Shown: positions 14,705 to 63,913 of the stretch, in pieces
Position numbering within the stretch: the stretch's first letter is position 1
Layout: every line of letters begins with the position of its first letter
NCBI GenBank assembly: GCA_035651155.1
Contig: DASRGG010000021.1
Coordinates: 339,752 to 403,751 of the forward strand
Reading direction: 5' to 3'
DNA from: Candidatus Limnocylindria bacterium
GTDB lineage: Bacteria > Chloroflexota > Limnocylindria > P2-11E
DNA: 64,000 bases
Translations under genes and position numbers: made by a program
The notes under the pieces: model-generated
Databases searched by the model: none
Seen by the model: only the letters and a program-made list of their open reading frames with translations
Told to the model about the DNA's origin: nothing

Positions 14705-14717
14705 GACATCACAGCTG

Positions 14718-14789
14718 AGGCGACGGCGGGAATCGAACCCGCGGTCGGGGTTTTGCAGACCCCTGCCTTAACCACTTGGCTACGTCGCC
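14718..14789 (-). tRNA. tRNA-Cys (anticodon GCA)
   Basis: GGCGACG/CGTCGCC acceptor stem, anticodon stem GGGGT/ACCCC with loop CTGCAAA, T-arm GCGGG-TTCGATT-CCCGC; 72 nt, CCA not encoded. Confidence 0.85.
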
Positions 14790-28184: not shown

Positions 28185-31100
28185 TTACGGGGTCGGGACG
28201 CCGAGCAGGATGCCCTCGCTCGCGCCGGCGGCGTTGTCGATGCCGACCACGAGCAGGCCGAGCGCGGGCGTCCGCGCCCATTCGGCCGCGTCGATCGAGA
28301 CAGGCTGGTCGACCGCGGCGCCCGGCGCCACCGCGTCGAAGGCGCCGGTGCTGATGGCCGGGGTGAAGGCGTTGAACGTGGCCGACGTGGTGCCGATGTC
28401 GTCGGTGCCGTCGCGGCCCGCGAAGACGTCGATGTGGTAGCTGAACCGCGGGCTGGCCGCGCTGAGGCCGAGCCGGTTGCTGAAGACCGGGATGAACACC
28501 GTGCTGTTGTCGGTCGCGATGGCGGTGCTCGTCAGCACGAGCGAGCCGGTCGTGAGGTTGACGACGCCGGAAAGGAACACGCCGTCGCGCGAGCCGGTCC
28601 GCACGAGGCCGTTGTCCGCGCCGAACACCAGGAAGTCGTCGACGCCGTCGCCGTTGGTGTCGACGAGGATGTCGTACTCGTTCACCGCGGCGTTGGAGAA
28701 CCGCTCCCAGGTATTGACCGCGAAGACGATCAGGCGACGGGTACCGGACGGGAACGACTGGGCGCCGGCCGCGCGCAGGTCGGTCTGGCCGTGTCCGTCG
28801 TTCGGCGAGCTGATGCCCCACGCGTAGAAGTCGGCGGTGCCGGTAAAGGCGCCGCCCGCGTTGGTGAGGTGGACCGTGCCGCTCGGGTTCGACGGGCCGA
28901 ATGGCGACGAGAGCGTCGCCGCGGTGTTCGAGAGGCCGCGCGGAACGAGGTAATAGGGGACGCGAAGGGCGATGCCGTTGTTGGCCCCGTTCACGGGCGT
29001 GAGCTCGATGAAGCCCGAAGCCTCGCGGAACGCGTTCGCGTTCCCGGTCGTGGCGCCGGGCACGGTGAGGGTCACGTCGATGGACGCGGACCGCTCGCCT
29101 GAAAGACGGATCGAGCTGCGGGACAGGCTGACCGTGTGCGGCGCGCCGCTCTGCATGGTCGCCGCGGCGGTGAAGCGCGGATCGCCCGCGTCCTCCCCGT
29201 CCTCGCCGCGGAGCGCCTGCACCCTGATCCGCTTCGTCGCGGTGTAGGTCCCGAGGAACTCGTTGTACCCGAAGGACAGGCTGGCCGTGCCGCGGTCGCC
29301 CGTCGCGATCGCGCGGGTGTGCGTGGCCGCGTAGGCCTGGACGAGTCCCGCGCCGCTGGTCCGTGTCCTGTATCCGGCGATCGCCGTGGCGGAGGCCGTG
29401 TTCATGATCGCGGCCTTGACCCGCTCGGCCACGCCGTTGCCGTCCTCGTCGTCATCGCGACGCCCCTGCTTCTGGGCCTGGACGACGAGGGCCGCGACGC
29501 CGCTCACGTGCGGCGCCGCCATGGACGTACCGGAGAGACGCTCGCCCTGGTTGCCGGTGCCGACCGCGGTCGAAAGGGTCGAGACGCCGGGGGCTGCGAC
29601 GTCGGGCTTCAGGCTGCTGTCGCGCAAGCGCGGGCCGCCCGAGGAGAAGCTCGCGATCGCGCTGAAGGCGGTGTTCGTGAGGGGACTGTTCGTCAGCGTG
29701 ACGGTCCCGCCGTCGCGGGTCTTGATCGCGGCTCCGTCGGTGGAGCGGACGCCCAGGAACGGGATCGTGACGGCGTAGACCTCGCCCGTGTCCGGGTTCC
29801 CGGTGATCGGACCCTCGAAGGGCGGGTAGCTCGTCGCGTTGTTGACCATGAGCACGGCCGCGGCGCCGTGCTGCTGGCCGAAGACGGCGCGCGCGACGCG
29901 CGCGCAGGTGCCGCGCTGCGTCACGACGAGCATGCCGGCGGTGCCGGCGTACTCGTTCGGATCGCAGCCGAGGCTGATCGCGGTGTGCGCGGCGTCGGAC
30001 CAGAGGACCTTCACCGGCAGCGTCAGGCCGTCGGCGAACGTCGCGCCGTTGGCGTTGATCGACGCGAGCGTCGTGGTCCCGAGGGCGGTCCCACCGGAGA
30101 ACGCGAGGGAAGCGCCGGGGAAAGTCTTCGTCGCGTCGTTCGCCGCGACGCTGATCGTGCGGGTCGCCGTGGAGGGCGATCCCGTGATGTACGGCGCAGG
30201 GCCGGAGTTGCCGGCCGAGGCCACGACGACGACGCCCGAGCGGGCGGCGTTGTCGGACGCGACGGCCGAGGGGTCGTCCGGGCGACCGAAGGACGAGCCG
30301 AGCGACATGTTGATGACGTCCATGTCGTGATCGACGGCCCAGTCGATGGCGTCGACGGTGACGTCGGTCGCGCCGTTGCAGCCGAAGACGCGGATCGCGT
30401 AGAGGTCGGCGAGGGGCGCGACGCCGGGTCCGATGCGGAAGGTGCTGAACGGGAGCGACGTGTCATACGTGCCCCGGTAGGTCTGGCCCGATGCGGTCAC
30501 GCCGAATCCCGCGACGGTCCCGGCGACGTGGCTGCCGTGGCCGTTGCAGTCGAGCGGGTTCGGGTCGGGCTTCGGGGTCGCGATGTTCGGGTCGGGCGAG
30601 CTCGGGTTGTAGGCGTCGCCGACGAGGTCGATGCCGCCCTTCACCTTCGGCGCGTGCTTGCCGAAGAGCGCGGGATCCGCGGGCAGCGCCTCGTTCGCGT
30701 GCGCGTCGACGTAGGCCGCGGGTGTGCCGGGGCCGCCGAAGTTCGCGTGCGTGTAGTCGATGCCCGTGTCGATGACGCCGACCTTGATGCGCTCGCCGCG
30801 CAGGCCCTTCTTGCCTTCCCAGACCTGCGGCGCGCCGATGTAGGGAACGCTCGTCGAGTTGTCGCGCTCCATCCGCTGGACCGGCACGACCGCCTCGACG
30901 TTCGGGAGCGAGGCGAGGGCGCCGAGCGACCGGCGCGCGATCTCGACCTTGATGCCGTTGTAGGCCGACTGGTATTGGCCGAGGACCCGGCCGCCCGCGG
31001 CGCCGATGCTCGGGAGCAGCGGATCCTGCTTCGCCCTGAGGCTGGCCTTGACGCTGTCGCGCTCGGCGTCCGAGATCTGCTTTCCGGGCTTGGACGCCTT

Positions 31101-54445: not shown

Positions 54446-56341
54446 CTATTTCGCTGACCGCACGCCGCGCATGCGCTCTGCCGTGCGCATCGCCAGCGCC
54501 ATCACGGTCGTCATCGGATTCACGCCCGAGGCGCTCGGGAACGCGCTCGCGTCGGTCACGTAAAGACCGCGCACGCCCCAGACCCGGCCGTCGGGGTCGG
54601 CGACCGAGGACGCGCGATCCCGCCCGATGCGGCAGCTCGACATCTGATGTGCCGAGAAGAGCGTCACCCGGTTGGCGGCGATACCGCGCCGGCCGATCTC
54701 CGCCACGAGATCGTCGACCCGCGTCGCCTCGAGGTCGAGCGGCGGTGTGTGCAGAGTGAAGATGCGCCGCGCGCCGGCGGCGGCGTGGATCCGCGCGGCC
54801 TCGACCATCCCGCGCTCGAGGAGTGCGCGCTCGCTCGCGCCATTCACGTAGCTGACGAGCGGCTCCCCGTCGCGGTCGACCGTCACGCGCCCTGCATCGC
54901 GATCGCGCACGATCGCGATGAACGGCGCGACGTGGCGCGCTTCGGTCGCGCGACCCTGGTGCGCCGCCGCGCCCCACCAGGGGAACGAGGCCGCCAGGAT
55001 GCCCGGATACGCCTGCGGGACCTCGAGGCGGAAGCCGTGCGCGCCGTCGATCTCGGCGAACGCGCTCACGACGACCGACTGCGGCACGCCCGACCACACA
55101 CCGCCGAGGTCCTCGTCGTACACGCCGGAGGTGACGGACACCGGGTGCAGGTGCAGGCCGCGACCGGCCTGTCCGGACGCGATCCCCGATCGCAGCAGCA
55201 GCGCCGGTGAGTGGATCGACCCGCCCCCGAGGGCGATGAGCGGCGCGCGCACTCTCAGCTCACCGCCCTCGACCCGTGCGGTCACGCCGGTCACGGCTCC
55301 GCGCGCGGACTCGATGCGGCGCGCGTCGGTGCCGGCGAGGATCTCGGCGCCCGCGGCCGAGGCATCGGCGAGGAACGTGCGCGGCGCCGACTGCTTCGCG
55401 CCGCGACGGCAGCCGAGCGTGCAGTGCCCGCAGTCGCCGCAGCCCTTCACGTTGCGCGCGATCGTCGCCGGCTCGAGTCCGAGCGCGCTCGCGCCCCGCT
55501 CGAGGGCGGCGTTCGCGCCGTTGCGCGCGCTCTCGTCGGTGTCGACGTCGGACCGCGCCTCGACCGCCGCGTAGCACGCCGCGAGATCGTCGACGCCCGC
55601 GCGCCGCCACTCCTCGGCGACCGCCGGGCTGATGCGCAGCGAGGTGTTCCAGTTGACGACGGTACCGCCGCCGACCGCCGATCCCGCGAGCAGGGCGATG
55701 GCGCGATCCTGCGTCGCGGCGATGCCGCGATCGACGAAGAGCGCCGCGTAGCCCGCGAGCTCGCGCGAGTCAAAGGAGTCCTCGAACCGCGGCCGAGCGC
55801 GCTCGAGGATGACCACGCGCTTGCCGGCGCCCGCGAGCGTAGCGGCGGCGACGGCCCCGCCCGCGCCCGAGCCGATGACGCAGACGTCAGCCTCGATGAC
55901 CTCGCCGGCGCGCGGCACGCGCACGCGGAGCGTCGATGGCGACATGGGCGGCAGCGGCGGACGCGCGTAGCCCATCGCCGCGGCGTAGGGCGAGCCGTCG
56001 ACGCCATACGCATAGAGCAGGGTGAGGCGCTTCATGACCTGGAACGCGCGGCGCTTCAGCGCGAGCGGACTGGTCGCCCACCGCTTGAGATACGCCTCGC
56101 GCTCGTGGTGCGCGAGCGAGGAGAAGCGCGACGGACGGCCGGTGAGGATGAGATTGAGCGGCGGCGATTCGATGGTGTCGAGGAGCTGATCGAGCTCGGC
56201 GAGGAGCGCGGGCCGCCCGAGCGCGGTGACCTCGGCCCGGAGCAGCTCGGGCACGCCGAGCGCGGATGCGGAGGGAAGGCCATCGCCGCCGGGTACGAAG
56301 GTGTCGCAGATCGCGGCGAGCGCGCGTGCGCGGTCCGGCAC
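54446..56341 (-). CDS. GMC family FAD-dependent oxidoreductase with N-terminal gluconate-2-dehydrogenase-subunit-3-like extension
   Basis: ADVCVIGSGAGGAVAA (FAD GxGxxG), GMC core and C-terminal active-site region (HQMSSCRIG, GLYVTDASAFPSASGVNP). The first ~140 aa (ICDTFVPGGDGLPSASALGVPEL) resemble the small subunit family fused in frame. Confidence 0.75.
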   Translation of the reverse strand: MPDRARALAAICDTFVPGGDGLPSASALGVPELLRAEVTALGRPALLAELDQLLDTIESPPLNLILTGRPSRFSSLAHHEREAYLKRWATSPLALKRRAFQVMKRLTLLYAYGVDGSPYAAAMGYARPPLPPMSPSTLRVRVPRAGEVIEADVCVIGSGAGGAVAAATLAGAGKRVVILERARPRFEDSFDSRELAGYAALFVDRGIAATQDRAIALLAGSAVGGGTVVNWNTSLRISPAVAEEWRRAGVDDLAACYAAVEARSDVDTDESARNGANAALERGASALGLEPATIARNVKGCGDCGHCTLGCRRGAKQSAPRTFLADASAAGAEILAGTDARRIESARGAVTGVTARVEGGELRVRAPLIALGGGSIHSPALLLRSGIASGQAGRGLHLHPVSVTSGVYDEDLGGVWSGVPQSVVVSAFAEIDGAHGFRLEVPQAYPGILAASFPWWGAAAHQGRATEARHVAPFIAIVRDRDAGRVTVDRDGEPLVSYVNGASERALLERGMVEAARIHAAAGARRIFTLHTPPLDLEATRVDDLVAEIGRRGIAANRVTLFSAHQMSSCRIGRDRASSVADPDGRVWGVRGLYVTDASAFPSASGVNPMTTVMALAMRTAERMRGVRSAK

Positions 56342-56531: not shown

Positions 56532-56586
56532 ATGATTACCTCCGAGACATCAGAACGCCGGCAACCGGCCGGCGTTCAGTGCGCTG

Positions 56587-56659
56587 AGCGGAAGACGGGT
56601 CTCGAACCCGCGACCTCGTCCTTGGCAAGGACGCGTTCTACCAACTGAACTACTTCCGC
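56587..56659 (-). tRNA. tRNA-Gly (anticodon GCC)
   Basis: GCGGAAG/CTTCCGC acceptor, anticodon stem CGTCC/GGACG with loop TTGCCAA, T-arm GCGGG-TTCGAGA-CCCGT. Confidence 0.85.
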
Positions 56660-56962: not shown

Positions 56963-57271
56963 GTGCAAGCGGCAACCGATAGCGAATCGGAGAATCTACT
57001 GAAGAACACGACGGCCCAGGGCGATGTCACGGAGTGGCAGGTCGCGGCGGCGCTCATGCGCCAGGGCCACAAATTGCTTCGTCCGCTCTCGTCAGCCACT
57101 CGCTACGACCTCCTGATCGATCACGAGGATGGCAGGTGCACGCGCGTCCAGTGCAAGACTGGCGTCTTGCGGAACGGTTGCGTCGTATTCCGCCTCTACA
57201 GCGTCAGCGGGCACAATGGCGGGTACCACTTAGCCTCATCGCATGGCACGTCGAACAGGAGAGCAAGAGCG
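56963..57271 (+). pseudogene. PD-(D/E)XK nuclease-like N-terminal fragment fused in frame to the downstream VOC gene
   Basis: GDVTEWQVAAALMRQGHKLLRPLSSATRYDLLIDHEDGRCTRVQCKT has the E...YDLI...RVQVKT spacing of small Hjc/endonuclease-like PD-(D/E)XK proteins. It runs without a stop into the VOC gene, which has its own RBS and ATG at 57272. Confidence 0.35.
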
Positions 57272-57700
57272 ATGACCACCAAGCTGAACGTCACCTCGGT
57301 CAAGGTCCTCGACCAGCACGAGGCGCTCGACTTCTACGTGAACAAGCTCGGCCTCGAGAAGGCCCAGGACATCAGGCAGGGGCCCTTCCGCTGGCTGACG
57401 GTGCGGTTCCCGGGCGACGAGGTCGAGATCTTCCTCGAGGAGCCAGGACCGCCTCTTCACGACGAGGCGACCGCCGCGCAGCTGCGGGAGCTCATCGCCA
57501 AGGGCGCCATGAGCTCGCTCGTTTTCTACTCGGACGACGTACGGGGTCTTTACGAGACGCTGCAGGCGCGCGGCGTGAGCGACTTCACCCAGGAGCCGAT
57601 CGAGCACGCCTACGGGACCGACATGGGACTCCGCGATCCCTTCGGCAACGCGATCCGGGTCCTCCAGCCGCCGAAGTCCCGGCAGAAAGCGACGGTGTGA
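57272..57700 (+). CDS. VOC family protein (glyoxalase/bleomycin resistance fold)
   Basis: MTTKLNVTSVKVLDQHEALDFYVNKLGLEK...FRWLTV...IFLEE...FYSDDVRGLYETLQARGV...DPFGN is a paired beta-alpha-beta-beta-beta module pattern; AGGAG RBS upstream. Confidence 0.75.
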   Translation: MTTKLNVTSVKVLDQHEALDFYVNKLGLEKAQDIRQGPFRWLTVRFPGDEVEIFLEEPGPPLHDEATAAQLRELIAKGAMSSLVFYSDDVRGLYETLQARGVSDFTQEPIEHAYGTDMGLRDPFGNAIRVLQPPKSRQKATV

Positions 57701-58722: not shown

Positions 58723-59268
58723 TCAGCCTGATTTCTCGATCTGCGCGATCGCGTTCTTCGCCATCTCGTTCAACGTGTCCACCGCCTCTTCGAGTGCCTG
58801 GCGCTTCTCGGTTGGCTTCGCAGTCGTGTCGCCCGCCTTGGCGTCGTTGAACGCGAGCGCGTATTGGTTGAAGGCAACAAAGACCTTCTGGTACTGGTCG
58901 ACGAACTGCTGCGAGTCGGTCTCGAGCGCGAGCTGGGCGCGCGCCTCGTTCACACCCTTCGACCCCTCCTGGAGCATGGCCGTGAGGCGCTTGTTCTTCG
59001 CGTCGTCGGTCTCGCCGCCATAGCCGAAGACCATGCCGACGGAGACGGACTGCATCGACCACGAGCCGAGGAGGAGTGGCTGCAGTGCAGCGCGCATGCG
59101 CGCGAGCTTGCCATCGCGCACCAAACGCCGGTCGCGGCGAGTGTCGCGCCGCTCCTCGAAGTAGGCCGCGAGCCAGAAGCCCGCGAGCGCGCCGAGCGCT
59201 GGACCGATGAGCGGCCACGCGGAAGCGATCCACCCCGTGACCGTCGAGATCAGCGCTGCAATGTCCAT
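58723..59268 (-). CDS. Small membrane-anchored hypothetical protein, third gene of the pAgo operon
   Basis: 181 aa; one N-terminal TM (AALISTVTGWIASAWPLIGPALGALAGFWLAAYF), then a soluble helical domain. ATG lies 10 nt downstream of the pAgo stop, same strand. Confidence 0.5.
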   Translation of the reverse strand: MDIAALISTVTGWIASAWPLIGPALGALAGFWLAAYFEERRDTRRDRRLVRDGKLARMRAALQPLLLGSWSMQSVSVGMVFGYGGETDDAKNKRLTAMLQEGSKGVNEARAQLALETDSQQFVDQYQKVFVAFNQYALAFNDAKAGDTTAKPTEKRQALEEAVDTLNEMAKNAIAQIEKSG

Positions 59269-59278
59269 CTTCGCAAGA

Positions 59279-60778
59279 TCAGATGTAGAACTTGAACTTG
59301 GCCTTGCGGTCCTTGACGTTCGGGTTGGCGACGAGGATCTCCCCCACCGCGTCTGAGAATCCGACGGTGACGGGCTCGACCTCGCCCAGGCGACACGCGT
59401 TGTAGTTCAGCTTGGTCAGACCAAAGATGTCCGATACCACCTGATCGAGGTCAGCCTCGCCGTGCTGCACATCGATCTGGAGCGGCAGTGGCGTCTCCCA
59501 CCCGTCGTACGTTCCGAGGCGCGGCTTGTAACCCGTCGTCCAGAGGAACGCGGTTCGGTCCGAGACGCGCCAGTACGTACCGCGGACCACGGGAAGATGA
59601 CCCTCGCGGAAGAGACGCACGTCGAAACGTTCCTGACGGACACGAACGCCGATGAGGCGCACGCCCTCCGGGCAGGCCTCCTGGAAGCCCGCGAACTCGT
59701 CGGCGTTCAGGCCCGACCTCGCGTGCAGGAACAGCTCCGTGAGCGGCTGGCCACCGAGCTCCTTGTAGGTGTCCAGCGCGCCGGTCAGGAGATCGCGCGC
59801 GCCGTCGTAGCTCAGGTGGTACTGGTTGCGCTCGGGCGAGTACCAGGGCCCGAACTCGCCCATGAAGACGATGCCGTCGCCACTGTCGAGGAACATCTGA
59901 GCGGCGCACGCGGCCACAGGGCTATCTGAACTCGGATCACGCCGGCGGTAGGCCAGTCCGAGGTAGCAAACACCCGGGCGCGCCGTGCTCAAGCGCCATG
60001 GCTTCCCGCCGGCCTTGTAGTAGAGCGCGACACCGAGGTTCCACGCGCGGTCGCACAGCGGCGTCAGGCTGCGCTCGCCGAACTTGTACTCGTCTGACAG
60101 TCGCAGAGTGGACTCGCGCACGATCTGGATCGGAATGCCGTACTTCATCGCACGCGCCTTGATCTGCCGTCTGAAGTCGACGGAGTACAGGAACACGTCG
60201 GGGCTCGTGTCATCGAACAGTCCCGTCTGGCCCGCCTTGCGGACGCGAACGTCCTTGGCCGCCATGCGCTCACCGGAACCGAACGGCACGCGCGAGAGCG
60301 GGCGGCAGTTCTTGTACACGAGGTCGGGAACGACGCACACGATCACATCGACGGGGTCGTCGTGACGCTCGAAGGCGGCGATCGCGTCCAGGTAGCGCTC
60401 CACGACCGCCGCGGCGCGCTTGTGCTCGTCCTTCTGGATGGCCTCGGCGAGGAGCGCGTCCTCATCGACGATGCGCTCGAGCGTCGGCTCTTCGGGAAGG
60501 ACGCAGCCGAAGGCGGGCTCGAAGCCGGGGAACATCGGCCAGAGCGCGGCGCTCCGACCCTCGGGCGGCATCGCGGCACTTTGCAGCCGCTTGGTCAGCG
60601 CCTTGAACGCATCCGTGCCGCGTGGCGTGCCGACGAGGCCCCACGAGACGTTGCGTCGATGCCCCGGCATGTCCGCGTCGAACGCGCCGAAGATGCTCAG
60701 GCCGTCGCGCGGATCCGAGACCGGCTGCGTGTAGCGGAACTCCAGGGGTGGCTCTGGGAGCATCCGAAGATCGATCAC
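59279..60778 (-). CDS. Short prokaryotic Argonaute (MID-PIWI, catalytically inactive), SPARTA-type
   Basis: 499 aa. Near-colinear to the remembered SPARTA short pAgo: DPRDGLSIFG, PMFPGFEPAFGC, YKNCRP, YYKAGGKPWRL, RPGVCYLGLAYRRR, AACAAQMFLDSGDGIVFMGEFGPWYSPE, LTKLNYNACRLGEVEPVTVGFSDAVGEIL, terminal KFKFYI. No DEDX catalytic tetrad. GTG start overlaps the TIR-APAZ stop (GTGA). Confidence 0.9.
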   Translation of the reverse strand: MIDLRMLPEPPLEFRYTQPVSDPRDGLSIFGAFDADMPGHRRNVSWGLVGTPRGTDAFKALTKRLQSAAMPPEGRSAALWPMFPGFEPAFGCVLPEEPTLERIVDEDALLAEAIQKDEHKRAAAVVERYLDAIAAFERHDDPVDVIVCVVPDLVYKNCRPLSRVPFGSGERMAAKDVRVRKAGQTGLFDDTSPDVFLYSVDFRRQIKARAMKYGIPIQIVRESTLRLSDEYKFGERSLTPLCDRAWNLGVALYYKAGGKPWRLSTARPGVCYLGLAYRRRDPSSDSPVAACAAQMFLDSGDGIVFMGEFGPWYSPERNQYHLSYDGARDLLTGALDTYKELGGQPLTELFLHARSGLNADEFAGFQEACPEGVRLIGVRVRQERFDVRLFREGHLPVVRGTYWRVSDRTAFLWTTGYKPRLGTYDGWETPLPLQIDVQHGEADLDQVVSDIFGLTKLNYNACRLGEVEPVTVGFSDAVGEILVANPNVKDRKAKFKFYI

Positions 60779-62124
60779 GTGGTCTCCTCCAGCTCCTCGT
60801 CCCCCACGCCAGGCGTCACGTCCGTCTCGTCGAGCTCCTCCTCGTCGTTCTCGACGGGAAGGGGACCGGCTTCTTCCTCATTGATGCCGTCGGGCGCGGT
60901 GACCGTAAGCGGGATCGCGCGGATGGCCAGGCGACTCTGCGCACGCGAGGTGAGCACGATCTCGCCTTGAGCGTCGGCGAGGAAGGCGCAGCTTCCGAGC
61001 TGGCGGCTCAGCCACTCGTAGTTCCACCAGTCCTTGCACAGGCGCTTCCGCCGGCGGACGAGCTTCACGCCCTGGAGCGGAGTGCCATTGAGGTCCGCGA
61101 GGTATACGCGGTTGCGGAGCTGGATCATCGGCGTCCCGTAGCGGAAGAGCGCCGGTCGGAACTCGACGGCGAGGTGATAGCGGAAGCGCTCGACCCCGTT
61201 CGTGGTCCGCGCGGCGCGCTCGCCGACGGCCTTCACGTGCGTCTTTTCCCCGTCCCATCTCGTGAAGCGCAGTCGGTCGCCGGGGACGAGGCCGCTCGGG
61301 AAATAGACATACTCCTCGTTGGCCGACTCTCTGAGGCCCTTCTGAACGCAGTGGCTGCGCATGCCCTCCTTTAGAAGGACGGTAACGATGTCGCGCGCGA
61401 TCGTCCGCTGCTCGCGATCGTCGTTCTCGAGCCAGGGGATCTCTTCGACCTTGTCGACCTCGACGCCCTCGGGCGGGCCCTCGAACGCGCCGACCACGTA
61501 GTCGTTCTCGGCCCAGTACGTCCAGCTCGAGGCGATCTCCGGTGAGAGCTTCTCATGCAGCGTGATGCGGAGGACGCTGCCGGGTATGTCGGTGATGGGA
61601 AGCAGGTTCGTCCAGAGGCGCTCGGGCCGGCCCGACAGCCGCTCGCGTTCGTGCATGTACTCACGAACGGAGTCGCGCGCCGGCATGAACGTGCGCGGCG
61701 CGTCGACTGAGGTTAGTTTCTTCAGGAGCTGAACGAGGCCGTGAGCCCAGCTCGTGTGGAACGGGATGTATGTGAGATCCGAAAGCTGCCACGGCAGCTC
61801 GTGCGAGGGGAGTGCCTCGACGTTGAGCGGGATGATGAACTCCTGCTTCCTGGCCCGACCGATGTTGAGGGCGATCGTGCGTTCCTTGAGCGGGTTGTCC
61901 TTCTCCTTGGACGCCCGCGAAATGAGCGAGAGCATCCGGAAGGTGCGCTCGTGGAGCGCGCGCTCGATATCCCTGGGGTACGACTCTCCACCGAGGAGCT
62001 TCACGCGATCGCACCACACGCTGTAGCCCTCGCCCGAGAGCTTTAGCGTGAGCCACTCCGCGAGCGCGGCATCCTCGATCGCGTAGTTGATGAACAGGTG
62101 GTCGCGCTCCAGGGCCTCGCCCAC
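60775..62124 (-). CDS. TIR-APAZ protein (SPARTA NADase partner of short pAgo)
   Basis: 449 aa. N-terminal TIR: LFINYAIEDAALAEWLTLKLSGEGYSVWCD, with the conserved catalytic Glu in NPLKERTIAL. APAZ region with KDWWNYEWLSRQLGSCAFLADAQGEIVL and an acidic C-terminal tail. GGAGG RBS 5 nt before the GTG. Confidence 0.9.
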   Translation of the reverse strand: MGEALERDHLFINYAIEDAALAEWLTLKLSGEGYSVWCDRVKLLGGESYPRDIERALHERTFRMLSLISRASKEKDNPLKERTIALNIGRARKQEFIIPLNVEALPSHELPWQLSDLTYIPFHTSWAHGLVQLLKKLTSVDAPRTFMPARDSVREYMHERERLSGRPERLWTNLLPITDIPGSVLRITLHEKLSPEIASSWTYWAENDYVVGAFEGPPEGVEVDKVEEIPWLENDDREQRTIARDIVTVLLKEGMRSHCVQKGLRESANEEYVYFPSGLVPGDRLRFTRWDGEKTHVKAVGERAARTTNGVERFRYHLAVEFRPALFRYGTPMIQLRNRVYLADLNGTPLQGVKLVRRRKRLCKDWWNYEWLSRQLGSCAFLADAQGEIVLTSRAQSRLAIRAIPLTVTAPDGINEEEAGPLPVENDEEELDETDVTPGVGDEELEETT

Positions 62125-62254
62125 GTCCCCTCCGTCGACGGTCGAACTTACGTTCTATCGTAGGTCGGTCGGGTCATCCGAGTAAAGAGACTGTCAAGCG
62201 ATAATTGAGCTTACCGCTAGACTCCAGCCCGCGTGAGCCTCTCCAGTTCTTTCG

Positions 62255-63913
62255 ATGCCAGCGTCGCGGACTAAGAAGCCAACCGCGTCGCCTGGACGAT
62301 CCCCGCGCATCGCGGCGCTCACGGTCTTCCTCCTCCGCCGCGAGATCGAAGACGCGAGGCAGGCACTTGGCGGACGTATCGCCGAGGAGTTTGGGGAAGT
62401 CGAGCTCCGACGGCTGCCGATCGACGCCCGCCTATTCGTGCGTCGCAGCGTCGTCCGCCACCCGTGGTGGGAGTCGTTTTTCGCGAGCGTGACGCGCGAA
62501 CCGCTGGTCGTCAAGGCATCGACCGCTGGCGCGATCCTCTTCGTCACGGTTGCGAAGCAGTTGTTCGCGTTCACCTTTGGCACCGGCCGCTTCGCCCTGG
62601 ACCCGTCGAGTTACGAGCGTGACTTCGGACTGCGCGTGACCCTCAATGCCGTTGACCCGCGGGCGCTGCGCAGTATCGACATGCAGACCGTTGAGGAACT
62701 CACCCTCTTCACGCAGCGACAGGCATCGCGCAGCTCCGGCCTCGAGGTCTTCCAACTCGACGAGATCCGCGACATGCTCCGCGGCGTCGTCGGTCAACCC
62801 AAGGACCCGAGTCTCGCGCAGCTCCTCGCGGGTTCCGACCGGCTAGCGCTGCGTGCGCGTGTCAGGCTGACCGACCTGGCCACGCTATGCGAGCGTCTCC
62901 AAGAGCTCTACGGCTCGAATGTCTACAAGGACGCCTTCGGCTTCATCGATCAAATGCGACGCGTCACTGAACCCGATTTGCTCGCGTCGCTCGACGAGCG
63001 GCTGGTTCAGGCGCTTGAAGAACCCGAAGACGCCACGCTTCACATGGCTCCGCCAGAGCCGATCGACTGGGAAGACTTCGGCGGGTACCGCTACGAGCCG
63101 ATCGACAAGGATGCTCCGCCACGTGGCGACCTCGACGTGGTCGAACTGGTCGAGACCTTCGAGGAAGCGCGCAAGCGTTCGCTGGAGCTGGACGATCTGA
63201 GGAAGCGCGTGCGCGTGGTGAGCCTCTCGGCCGCAACCGGTCAGCCGGCGCATCACTGGTCTCTCTACGACACGATGGTGACGGAGTTCGCCGTCGGCGA
63301 TCAACGCTACGTGCTCAGCGGCGGTGACTGGTTCGAAGTCAGTGCGACCTTCGCCGAGCAAACTGCAGCGGCAGTCAACGCGCTGCCCACCTCGGCGATC
63401 GCCTTTCCTAGTTCACCGAAGGGTGAGGTAGAGGCCCAATACCTCACACGGGCCGTGCCGCTGCTCGAGGCGGGCGAGGGTATCGGTTACGCGCTGATGG
63501 ACCAGAAGCTGGTCGCGTGCACCGGCGCCCCCTCGCGGATCGAGGTGTGTGATCTGCTCAACGAGCTCAAGCAATTCATCCACGTGAAGCGCAGGACGGC
63601 GTCAGCCACGCTTAGCCACCTCTTCGCTCAAGGCACGACTTCGGCGACGGCGTTCATCGGGGATCGGGGGTTCCGCCTGGCAGCACGTGACGAACTACCC
63701 GCGGCGTGGGATGCCGCCGCGATCTTTCCCGAGGACCAGCCCATCGCGGGCGAATACACGGTGACGTACGCCGTGATCGCGCGAGGCAACGGGCCCCTCG
63801 GGGAGACTCTTCCTTTCTTCAGCCAGGTCAACCTGACGCATGCGTCCCGCATCCTGCGCACGATGGGCTTTGCCGTCGAACTCGCGCACATCGAGGAGAC
63901 ACCGGCGCCGTAA
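62255..63913 (+). CDS. Large hypothetical protein, TIGR04141/DUF6119-like ('sporadically distributed' defence-island protein), possible PD-(D/E)XK-like C-terminal core
   Basis: 552 aa, divergent from the SPARTA operon with an AT-richer 130-nt spacer. C-terminal GDWFE...RIEVCDLLNELKQFIHVKR resembles a D...E-x-K nuclease motif. Family assignment is from memory only. Confidence 0.45.
   Translation: MPASRTKKPTASPGRSPRIAALTVFLLRREIEDARQALGGRIAEEFGEVELRRLPIDARLFVRRSVVRHPWWESFFASVTREPLVVKASTAGAILFVTVAKQLFAFTFGTGRFALDPSSYERDFGLRVTLNAVDPRALRSIDMQTVEELTLFTQRQASRSSGLEVFQLDEIRDMLRGVVGQPKDPSLAQLLAGSDRLALRARVRLTDLATLCERLQELYGSNVYKDAFGFIDQMRRVTEPDLLASLDERLVQALEEPEDATLHMAPPEPIDWEDFGGYRYEPIDKDAPPRGDLDVVELVETFEEARKRSLELDDLRKRVRVVSLSAATGQPAHHWSLYDTMVTEFAVGDQRYVLSGGDWFEVSATFAEQTAAAVNALPTSAIAFPSSPKGEVEAQYLTRAVPLLEAGEGIGYALMDQKLVACTGAPSRIEVCDLLNELKQFIHVKRRTASATLSHLFAQGTTSATAFIGDRGFRLAARDELPAAWDAAAIFPEDQPIAGEYTVTYAVIARGNGPLGETLPFFSQVNLTHASRILRTMGFAVELAHIEETPAP

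What the first reader, a model, noticed from the sequence alone, without database searches (positions are those of the whole stretch)
59279..62124. Complete SPARTA-type short-Argonaute immune module (TIR-APAZ + inactive short pAgo)
Two translationally coupled genes (GTGA overlap). The first is a 449-aa TIR-APAZ protein. Its TIR domain aligns residue-for-residue with the characterised SPARTA TIR (WLtLKLsgeGYsVWCD; catalytic Glu retained in LKERTIAL), and it has the APAZ WWN..W region and acidic tail. The second is a 499-aa MID-PIWI short pAgo with all the conserved blocks of SPARTA pAgos but no DEDX tetrad. In characterised systems this pair uses guide RNA to detect invader DNA and then depletes NAD(P)+, causing abortive infection. 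Here it sits in a tRNA-adjacent accessory island of a high-GC genome, an under-sampled host group.
Basis: partly seen in the sequence, partly recalled or inferred. Interest (0 to 1): 0.9.

Follow-up and report, generated by a model that had tools for sequence, protein, structure and literature searches.

The report
Intact SPARTA Argonaute defence gene pair
This is an intact two-gene SPARTA anti-plasmid defence system (a TIR-APAZ NAD-destroying enzyme plus an inactive short Argonaute) in an uncultured Chloroflexota bacterium; it is a sound but ordinary new member of a well-characterised family.

Summary
On the minus strand, a 449-aa TIR-APAZ gene (62124..60775) overlaps a 499-aa short pAgo gene (60778..59279) by GTGA, and both have GGAGG-type ribosome-binding sites.

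The pAgo matches solved SPARTA Argonautes full-length (E~1e-109, 40% identity to MapAgo). A TIR-APAZ family profile matches CrtSPARTA TIR-APAZ end to end (E 5e-45). Its AlphaFold model's best ~30 PDB hits are all SPARTA TIR-APAZ chains.

The catalytic Glu (E81), the MID 5'-phosphate pocket (R203/K207/Q218/K255), the RNA 2'-OH contacts, sensor-loop W312 and the acidic C-terminal tail are all present. Two of the three DEDX carboxylates are replaced (A276, R354).

Both genes are under purifying selection (dN/dS 0.21 and 0.11). In six related loci the pair is the only conserved unit.

Differences from MapSPARTA and CrtSPARTA are a MID motif of RK instead of HK and a TIR BB loop reading GGESYP. Both are invariant across about 120 homologues and look like lineage variation.

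The host is a Candidatus Limnocylindria MAG. The exact proteins are already in NCBI, unannotated as Argonaute. Thousands of homologues exist.

Verdict: new member of a known kind, low to moderate interest.

The parts
60775..62124 (-). TIR-APAZ gene (449 aa). TIR NADase domain at about aa 7-140, with catalytic E81 and BB loop L44-GGESYP-50. Bridging region at about aa 145-165. APAZ domain at about aa 166-415, including W366-W367-N368..W371. Acidic C-terminal tail at aa 415-449.
   Evidence: ORF. Pfam TIR_2 1.7e-17. PADLOC Aga_TIR-PNTD1-PNTD2 6e-69, aa 6-419 of a 430-position model. Family profile against CrtSPARTA 8fex_A, positions 7-431 to 2-431, E 5e-45. AF2 model pLDDT 85.4. Foldseek top hits are all SPARTA TIR-APAZ. 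E81 is invariant in 119/119 homologues.
59279..60778 (-). Short prokaryotic Argonaute gene (499 aa, MID plus PIWI only). MID 5'-phosphate pocket R203/K207/Q218/K255. RNA 2'-OH contacts R221/T224. Sensor loop with W312. DEDX-equivalent positions are A276, (loop), R354 and D476.
   Evidence: ORF. PADLOC pAgo_I 3.4e-169, full length. PDB 8qlo_B, 8ifk_B and 8fex_B at E 1e-109 to 1e-105, aa 3-499. Residue mapping. DEDX chain.
60775..60778 (-). GTGA start/stop overlap, consistent with translational coupling. GGAGGAG lies 5 nt upstream of the pAgo GTG.
   Evidence: The same overlapping arrangement occurs in the related loci L010, L016, L018, L019 and L021.
62125..62254 (.). 130-bp divergent intergenic region between TIR-APAZ and DUF6119. 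It is the presumed promoter region and holds the GGAGGGG RBS for TIR-APAZ.
   Evidence: Sequence read. No sigma-70 consensus match was found, which is uninformative for Chloroflexota.

Best explanation
This is a functional SPARTA system: a short prokaryotic Argonaute plus TIR-APAZ, clade S2A. The steps below marked 'inferred' are taken from MapSPARTA and CrtSPARTA.

1. The two co-translated proteins form a 1:1 heterodimer. APAZ plays the role of the missing N-lobe of the nuclease-dead MID-PIWI Argonaute. (Inferred.)
2. In the resting state, the acidic C-terminal tail of TIR-APAZ occupies the nucleic-acid channel. (Inferred.)
3. The MID pocket (R203, K207, Q218, K255, with R221 and T224 reading the 2'-OH) loads 5'-phosphorylated small RNA guides derived from highly transcribed DNA. 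(Residues shown; activity inferred.)
4. Pairing with complementary ssDNA of a multicopy invader moves the PIWI sensor loop (W312). This drives Ago-Ago dimerisation and tetramerisation. (Inferred.)
5. The TIR domains assemble through their BB loops into composite active sites. E81 then hydrolyses NAD(P)+, and the cell stops growing or dies. This is population-level abortive defence against plasmids and similar elements. (Inferred.)

Shown here: gene architecture, homology, conserved residues and purifying selection. Inferred: complex formation, guide and target type, oligomerisation, NADase activity and phenotype.
For: - Architecture and coupling.
- Full-length homology of pAgo to solved SPARTA Agos, E 1e-109. 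This is far better than to SPARHA (2e-51), SPARDA (3e-35) or SPARSA (4e-22) Agos in the same search.
- TIR-APAZ profile matches SPARTA TIR-APAZ full length, E 5e-45. Fold match.
- PADLOC class I pAgo and Aga_TIR models.
- Functional residues defined in PMC10355822, PMC10474274, PMC9097488 and bioRxiv 10.1101/2023.07.14.549122 map to conserved residues: E77->E81, G42->G46, F45->Y49, K211->K207, Q222->Q218, K263->K255, R225->R221, T228->T224, R152->R159, W320->W312. These are invariant or nearly so across about 120 homologues.
- DEDX positions 1 and 3 are A276 and R354.
- The acidic tail is conserved across the family.
- dN/dS is 0.21 and 0.11 against the orthologous pair in L010.
- The pair is the only conserved unit across six loci that otherwise carry varied defence and mobile genes. 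This matches Koopal et al. 2022 (PMC9097488).
Against: - There is no experimental evidence for this locus or for any member of its sub-lineage.
- TIR-APAZ is divergent from the characterised proteins: about 21% identity overall by Foldseek and 35% in the TIR domain.
- CrtSPARTA D44, whose D44A mutant loses NADase activity, is Ser here (S48). MapTIR Y105, which stacks the adenine, has no aromatic counterpart at the aligned position (S107).
- The MID motif is RK rather than HK.
- These differences are invariant in the clade, and an Agrobacterium plasmid SPARTA also lacks D44 and Y105. That argues against loss of function, but guide preference or kinetics could differ.
- No promoter was identified.
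Confidence: 0.9

Rival explanations
1. It is a SPARTA homologue whose divergent TIR pocket or RK-type MID gives a materially different activity. Possibilities include a different guide 5'-end or DNA-guide preference, a cyclic ADPR-type signalling product instead of plain NAD+ depletion, or a different oligomeric trigger.
For: BB loop GGESYP replaces DKGVDFW, with D44->S48. Y105 has no aromatic equivalent. H207->R203. All three changes are invariant in 118-120 of about 120 homologues, so they are selected features of a large uncharacterised sub-lineage. TIR domains are known to yield different products in different systems (cited in PMC9097488).
Against: The catalytic Glu, the BB-loop Gly and the aromatic Y49 are kept. 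The remaining MID pocket and the 2'-OH-reading residues are identical to MapAgo. BB-loop sequence also varies in other SPARTA lineages. Arg and His both occur as 5'-phosphate ligands in pAgo MID domains; that point is from my own knowledge of pAgo surveys and was not tested here.
Confidence: 0.08
2. It is an inactive remnant: a decaying or domesticated gene pair in an old island that no longer provides defence.
For: The island is old and fixed at the same site in two lineages, with dS about 0.9. Neighbouring genes show signs of decay; the PD-(D/E)XK domain is truncated and fused to a glyoxalase domain. No promoter consensus was found.
Against: Both ORFs are full length relative to the family models and have intact start sites and RBSs. 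dN/dS is 0.11-0.21. Every catalytic or ligand residue tested is retained.
Confidence: 0.02

Closest known systems
MapSPARTA (Maribacter polysiphoniae), CrtSPARTA (Crenotalea thermophila) and BabSPARTA: clade S2A short pAgo/TIR-APAZ systems (Koopal et al. 2022, PMC9097488; structures 8fex, 8ifk, 8qlo and others)
   Same: Two-gene operon with TIR-APAZ upstream of and overlapping pAgo. Similar sizes (449/499 aa against about 450/507). Full-length collinear homology. Catalytic Glu, BB-loop Gly and aromatic residue. MID K-Q-K and the 2'-OH-reading R/T. Sensor-loop Trp. WWN..W APAZ motif. Acidic autoinhibitory-type C-terminal tail. No DEDX tetrad.
   Different: pAgo is only 40% identical. TIR-APAZ is about 21% identical overall and 35% in the TIR domain. 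MID first ligand is Arg (RK) rather than His (HK). BB loop is LGGESYP rather than LDKGVDFW, with D44->S. There is no aromatic residue at the Y105 position. The fourth DEDX position is Asp rather than Asn. The host is a 70%-GC Chloroflexota MAG rather than Bacteroidota or Bacillales.
SPARTA-like pairs on Hyphomicrobiales plasmids (for example Agrobacterium tumefaciens pAspH13-3a, WP_013637054/WP_013637055; Aminobacter pAA04)
   Same: TIR-APAZ plus pAgo with a 4-nt overlap, located in defence-rich regions. pAgo is 37-41% identical.
   Different: They have an HK MID motif and a TGGSPFW BB loop, and they are plasmid-borne in cultured Proteobacteria.
Other short pAgo systems: SPARSA (SIR2-APAZ), SPARDA (DREN/DUF4365-APAZ), SPARHA (HNH-APAZ)
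   Same: An inactive MID-PIWI Argonaute paired with an APAZ-fused effector, with abortive-infection logic. The APAZ folds are detectably similar (ranks 36-50).
   Different: The effector domain here is TIR. The pAgo is much closer to SPARTA Agos (1e-109) than to these (2e-51 to 4e-22).

Membership tests
SPARTA (clade S2A short pAgo + TIR-APAZ) | The Argonaute consists of MID and PIWI only, with no N or PAZ domains | tested here: met
   The protein is 499 aa. Residues 3-499 align collinearly to residues 3-507 of solved 507-aa SPARTA Agos. The PADLOC pAgo_I match is full length.
SPARTA (clade S2A short pAgo + TIR-APAZ) | The PIWI domain lacks the DEDX catalytic tetrad | tested here: met
   Position 1 (VbAgo D550 / hAGO2 D597) is A276; the family shows A107/S7/V5/T1. 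Position 3 (VbAgo D617 / hAGO2 D669) is R354; the family shows R113/H6/K1. Position 4 (hAGO2 H807) is D476, retained. The mapping runs from query to a Halobacterium long pAgo to VbAgo WT versus its DM mutant, with hAGO2 numbering verified. The position-1 alignment is a weak local match (domain E 0.03) supported by the flanking GGKPW..G motif. The Glu-finger position could not be assigned.
SPARTA (clade S2A short pAgo + TIR-APAZ) | An adjacent same-strand gene encodes an N-terminal TIR domain fused to a C-terminal APAZ domain | tested here: met
   Pfam TIR_2 at aa 11-134. PADLOC TIR-PNTD1-PNTD2 at aa 6-419. Profile against 8fex_A full length, E 5e-45. Foldseek hits to SPARTA TIR-APAZ at E 6e-28 and to APAZ-only chains at TM 0.67-0.74. 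GTGA overlap.
SPARTA (clade S2A short pAgo + TIR-APAZ) | The catalytic Glu of the TIR NADase (Glu77 in Map/Crt) | tested here: met
   E81 aligns to E77 and is invariant in 119/119 homologues.
SPARTA (clade S2A short pAgo + TIR-APAZ) | MID 5'-phosphate binding pocket (MapAgo H207, K211, Q222, K263) and RNA 2'-OH contacts (R225, T228) | tested here: met
   The query has R203, K207, Q218 and K255, each invariant in 120/120, plus R221 and T224. The first ligand is Arg instead of His, a conservative basic substitution.
SPARTA (clade S2A short pAgo + TIR-APAZ) | BB-loop / BE-interface residues needed for TIR assembly (Crt G42, D44; Map F45, Y105) | tested here: inconclusive
   G46 and Y49 are conserved. 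D44 becomes S48, and Y105 becomes S107 with no aromatic residue. Both substitutions are clade-invariant, and both residues are also absent in an Agrobacterium SPARTA-like system. These residues therefore do not appear to be universal in the family.
SPARTA (clade S2A short pAgo + TIR-APAZ) | The pAgo groups phylogenetically with S2A rather than with S1A, S1B or S2B | tested here: met
   This rests on ranking only; no tree was built. SPARTA Agos score E 1e-109 to 1e-105, against SPARHA 2e-51, SPARDA 3e-35 to 1e-27 and SPARSA 4e-22. The best PADLOC model is pAgo_I.
SPARTA (clade S2A short pAgo + TIR-APAZ) | Heterodimer formation, guide-RNA/target-ssDNA-triggered tetramerisation and NAD(P)+ hydrolysis, and plasmid-triggered cell death | not testable with these tools
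   This requires biochemistry or heterologous expression.

The most novel reading that the evidence does not exclude
This locus belongs to a large, wholly uncharacterised SPARTA sub-lineage. Its marks are an RK-type MID pocket, an invariant GGESYP BB loop, no Y105-type aromatic residue, and Asp retained at the fourth DEDX position. It is found in uncultured Chloroflexota, Planctomycetota, Acidobacteriota and others. The altered TIR interface or guide pocket could give a mechanistically distinct behaviour, such as a different guide 5'-end or nucleic-acid preference, a different assembly geometry, or a different NAD-derived product.
Probability: 0.1. Interest if true: 0.45.

Novelty: new member of a known kind. 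Interest (0 to 1): 0.25.

Why it matters
The locus adds a confirmed, apparently functional SPARTA system to the class Ca. Limnocylindria (Chloroflexota). No paper in the searchable library links TIR-APAZ to Chloroflexota. Koopal et al.'s RefSeq survey legend names Acidobacteria, Bacteroidetes and Proteobacteria as hosts.

It also shows that NCBI still labels the Argonaute 'hypothetical protein', so the annotation could be improved.

The clade-invariant RK / GGESYP variant might be useful to people engineering SPARTA-based nucleic-acid detection who want orthologues with different properties.

It opens no new biological question. The mechanism, structure and phenotype of the family are already well established, and standard defence-finder HMMs (PADLOC) detect this pair at once.

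Tried and rejected
- **Direct hhalign to human AGO2.** I aligned the short-pAgo family alignment A2 against the human AGO2 PIWI region to place the DEDX residues. It gave no meaningful alignment (Prob 0.1). I replaced it with a chained alignment through a Halobacterium plasmid long pAgo and VbAgo WT versus DM.
- **Residue lists in papers.** I searched the structural papers for an explicit list of DEDX-equivalent residues in MapAgo or CrtAgo. They appear only in figures.
- **Genome scan.** The genome-contig scan with the pAgo returned only 7 loci, because the peptide patterns were too specific. It was of little use for taxonomy. The host was identified instead from the exact-sequence cluster look-up.
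- **att repeats.** I searched for a direct repeat of tRNA-Gly to delimit the island. Only chance-level 15-19-nt repeats appeared in the 17 kb available. The far boundary lies beyond the retrievable DNA.
- **181-aa ORF as a third component.** Rejected. It has no similarity to the ORF in the same position in the closest relative and no family hits.
- **DUF6119 as a system partner.** Rejected. It is present only in this locus and its closest relative, and absent from five other SPARTA loci.
- **Promoter and terminator scan.** Uninformative.
Full report
**1. Observation**

The six-frame ORF list shows two minus-strand ORFs at exactly the reported coordinates. One is 60775..62124 (449 aa, GTG start). 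The other is 59279..60778 (499 aa, GTG start). Reading the junction confirms that the stop codon of the first gene overlaps the start of the second in the tetranucleotide GTGA (60778-60775).

Both starts have a purine-rich Shine-Dalgarno sequence 5-6 nt upstream: GGAGGGG before the first gene and GGAGGAG before the second. NCBI's own gene call for the identical protein uses the same 449-aa start (P0126).

WLTLKLSGEGYSVWCD is at aa 24-39, LKERTIAL at aa 79-86, and WWNYEW at aa 366-371. The tail is strongly acidic, with 17 D/E and no K/R in the last 40 residues.

**2. What the proteins are**

*TIR-APAZ protein.*
- Pfam finds TIR_2 at aa 11-134 (1.7e-17).
- PADLOC's model for Argonaute-associated TIR-APAZ proteins (Aga_TIR-PNTD1-PNTD2) matches aa 6-419 of a 430-position model at 6e-69.
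- A single-sequence search of PDB reaches only the TIR domain and the C-terminal part of APAZ in SPARTA chains (E~1e-24).
- A profile of 39 homologues (A1) aligns positions 7-431 to residues 2-431 of the TIR-APAZ chain 8fex_A (deposited as Maribacter polysiphoniae SPARTA) at E 5e-45.
- An AlphaFold2 model built from that alignment has mean pLDDT 85.4.
- Foldseek against PDB returns SPARTA TIR-APAZ chains as roughly the first 30 hits, at E 6e-28 to 1e-21 over about 435 aligned columns. APAZ-only chains superpose at TM 0.67-0.74 and about 4 Å. APAZ proteins of SPARHA, SPARDA and SPARSA follow.
- The low global TM (~0.45) comes from the relative orientation of TIR and APAZ in a model made without the Argonaute partner.

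*Argonaute protein.*
- It has no Pfam hit. The NCBI entry for the identical sequence is labelled only 'hypothetical protein'.
- It matches PADLOC pAgo_I full length at 3.4e-169.
- It matches the solved SPARTA Argonautes 8qlo_B, 8ifk_B and 8fex_B over residues 3-499 at E 1e-109 to 1e-105. Identity to MapAgo is 40%.
- In the same search, Argonautes of the other short-pAgo systems score far lower: SPARHA 2e-51, SPARDA 3e-35 and SPARSA 4e-22. Long pAgos barely register (3e-7).

**3. Residue-level tests**

Functional residues were taken from the structural literature:
- PMC10355822: MapAgo H207, K211, Q222, K263, R225, T228, R152; MapTIR F45, E77, Y105.
- PMC10474274: sensor loop aa 314-332 with W320; bridging helix.
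- bioRxiv 10.1101/2023.07.14.549122: BB-loop G42 and D44.
- PMC9097488: E77A abolishes NADase activity.

I mapped these through the HMMER alignments. I then tabulated them over 120 pAgo and 119 TIR-APAZ homologues.

| Reference residue | Query residue | Family composition |
|---|---|---|
| TIR E77 (catalytic) | E81 | 119/119 E |
| TIR G42 | G46 | 119/119 G |
| TIR F45 | Y49 | 116 Y |
| Ago K211 / Q222 / K263 | K207 / Q218 / K255 | 120/120 each |
| Ago R225 | R221 | 110/120 R |
| Ago T228 | T224 | 119/120 T |
| Ago R152 | R159 | 120/120 R |
| Ago W320 | W312 | 120/120 W |

Three positions differ from MapSPARTA and CrtSPARTA:
- H207 is R203 (120/120 R), so the MID motif is RK rather than HK.
- BB-loop D44 is S48 (118/119 S), within an invariant GGESYP.
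- Y105 has no aromatic equivalent; the family shows P, A or S there.

These differences are fixed across the whole retrieved family. An Agrobacterium plasmid SPARTA-like pair also lacks D44 and Y105; its loop reads TGGSPFW and its MID is HK. I read them as lineage variation, not as loss of function.

**4. DEDX test**

- hhalign of the family against human AGO2 PIWI failed. The AGO2 sequence and numbering had first been verified against PDB.
- I found a bridge. A 731-aa long pAgo on a Halobacterium salinarum plasmid (H39) aligns to the query's PIWI (BLASTP 2e-10).
- That protein in turn aligns to VbAgo. PDB holds VbAgo both as wild type and as a double mutant, and the two differ at YMGV[D/A]LL and VHR[D/A]GRW. 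This pins catalytic Asp 1 (D550) and Asp 3 (D617) from deposited sequences.
- The family HMM aligns ...GGKPWRL...VCYIGL to VbAgo ...GLQPWVL...DFYMGV, which puts D550 opposite A276. This is a weak local match supported by the flanking motif.
- The BLASTP chain puts D617 opposite R354.
- Across 120 homologues these columns are A/S/V/T and R/H/K, so two of the three metal-binding carboxylates are absent throughout the family.
- The fourth position, placed by my motif alignment PVTVGFSD against AGO2 PAPAYYAH, is D476 (D in 101/120). MapAgo has Asn there.
- The Glu-finger position lies in what SPARTA uses as the sensor loop (PMC10474274) and is not conserved; E316 occurs in only 47/120.

The tetrad is therefore not retained, and the refutation criterion is not met.

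**5. Is it maintained?**

I compared the pair codon by codon with the orthologous pair in L010, where pAgo is 86% and TIR-APAZ 73% identical. dN/dS is 0.11 for pAgo and 0.21 for TIR-APAZ, at dS of about 0.9. Both ORFs are full length relative to the family models. This is a gene pair under purifying selection.

**6. Context**

- The window is part of a 141-kb metagenome contig (ENA ERZ27279688).
- The identical pAgo is NCBI HZP96355.1, a 'hypothetical protein' from a Candidatus Limnocylindria MAG. That class belongs to Chloroflexota. The identical TIR-APAZ is annotated only as a TIR-domain protein.
- GC falls from about 0.71 to about 0.65 from roughly 56.4 kb to the window end and beyond.
- tRNA-Gly(GCC) lies at 56586-56659, confirmed by Rfam.
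- Between the tRNA and the pAgo lie a small HTH gene, a truncated PD-(D/E)XK / glyoxalase fusion, a DUF1801 gene and an orphan 181-aa ORF.
- Upstream and divergent from TIR-APAZ is a DUF6119/TIGR04141 gene.
- Just past the window end are a tyrosine integrase, a recombinase fragment, a sigma factor and further small genes.
- No att-type repeat of the tRNA was found in the 17 kb available. The tRNA's 5' end faces the island, which is not the canonical geometry. The low-GC tract continues to the end of the retrievable DNA.
- The closest relative (L010) has the same layout, including tRNA-Gly, and is syntenic on the core side as well (MoxR, 89% nt). The island therefore sits at the same site in two related lineages and predates their divergence.

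In six related loci, TIR-APAZ is always directly upstream of and overlapping pAgo. All other neighbours differ: BrnT/BrnA, type I R-M, AbiE, another TIR gene, integrases and relaxases. The 181-aa ORF is not conserved. DUF6119 is shared only with L010. This agrees with Koopal et al., who found the APAZ protein to be the only specific partner.

**7. Mechanism**

By homology, the pair most likely works as described for MapSPARTA and CrtSPARTA:
1. The two proteins form a heterodimer. It is autoinhibited by the acidic C-terminal motif lying in the duplex channel.
2. The MID pocket loads 5'-P RNA guides.
3. Binding of target ssDNA is sensed by the PIWI sensor loop.
4. Ago-mediated tetramerisation follows.
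5. The TIR domains assemble through their BB loops, and E81-dependent NAD(P)+ hydrolysis leads to growth arrest or death of cells carrying highly transcribed multicopy DNA.

Only the sequence-level prerequisites are shown here. Every biochemical step is inferred.

**8. Novelty**

- The family is well known, structurally solved many times, and abundant in public data. There are more than 3,300 pAgo homologues at E<=1e-20, many at 55-95% identity.
- Named hosts include Chloroflexi, Dehalococcoidia, Planctomycetota, Acidobacteriota and Deltaproteobacteria.
- No paper in the searchable library links TIR-APAZ with Chloroflexota. No member of this RK/GGESYP lineage has a solved structure; the best PDB identity is 40%.
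- This is a new, currently unannotated member of a known kind. The host class is a modest extension of known range.

Noticed in passing
window 62255-63913 (+): A 552-aa DUF6119 / TIGR04141 'sporadically distributed protein' (Pfam 2e-131) is divergently transcribed from the SPARTA operon and lies next to a tyrosine integrase. It is conserved (74% aa, dN/dS 0.12) in the closest relative's island but absent from five other SPARTA loci. It has no PADLOC hit, no PDB sequence relative and one PHROG of unknown function (phrog_18579, 2e-37). The only paper found that mentions the domain is an unrelated wheat MADS-box gene study. It is a candidate uncharacterised island or defence cargo gene.
   Followed up: partly
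window 56963-57700 (+): A 245-aa ORF joins the N-terminal half of a PD-(D/E)XK_5 endonuclease domain (profile positions 2-78 of 138) to a complete glyoxalase/bleomycin-resistance domain. In the relative L010 the PDDEXK_5 gene stands alone (106 aa). This looks like a truncation or fusion remnant in the island.
   Followed up: no
window 58723-59268 (-): A 181-aa orphan ORF with a hydrophobic N-terminal segment starts 10 bp after the pAgo stop codon. It has no hits in Pfam, PADLOC, NCBIfam or PHROGs. It shows no similarity to the ORF in the same position in the closest relative, so it is not part of the SPARTA system.
   Followed up: yes
window 55454-55532 (+) and 28855-28946 (+): ARAGORN calls a 79-nt tRNA-Ala(CGC) inside the GMC-oxidoreductase ORF and a 92-nt tRNA-Glu. 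Neither reaches Rfam's tRNA gathering score, so both are probably false positives. Only tRNA-Gly (56586-56659) and tRNA-Cys (14717-14789) are supported.
   Followed up: partly
window 56586-56659 (-) and L012 11706-21659 (beyond the window end): The low-GC island continues at least 10 kb past the window end. That stretch carries a tyrosine integrase, a recombinase fragment, a sigma-70-like factor, HTH genes and a 694-aa unknown protein. The tRNA-Gly 5' end, not its 3' end, faces the island, and no att repeat was found. The same tRNA and island arrangement recurs in a related MAG (GCA_040960095.1) with synteny on both sides.
   Followed up: partly
L014 1061-3256 (Halobacterium salinarum plasmid pKBTZ03_58, WP_338756459.1): This 731-aa 'hypothetical protein' is a long pAgo with both catalytic Asp positions substituted (YLGLSV and IHRNGY). 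It therefore looks like an inactive long-B-type Argonaute. I used it only as an alignment bridge.
   Followed up: no
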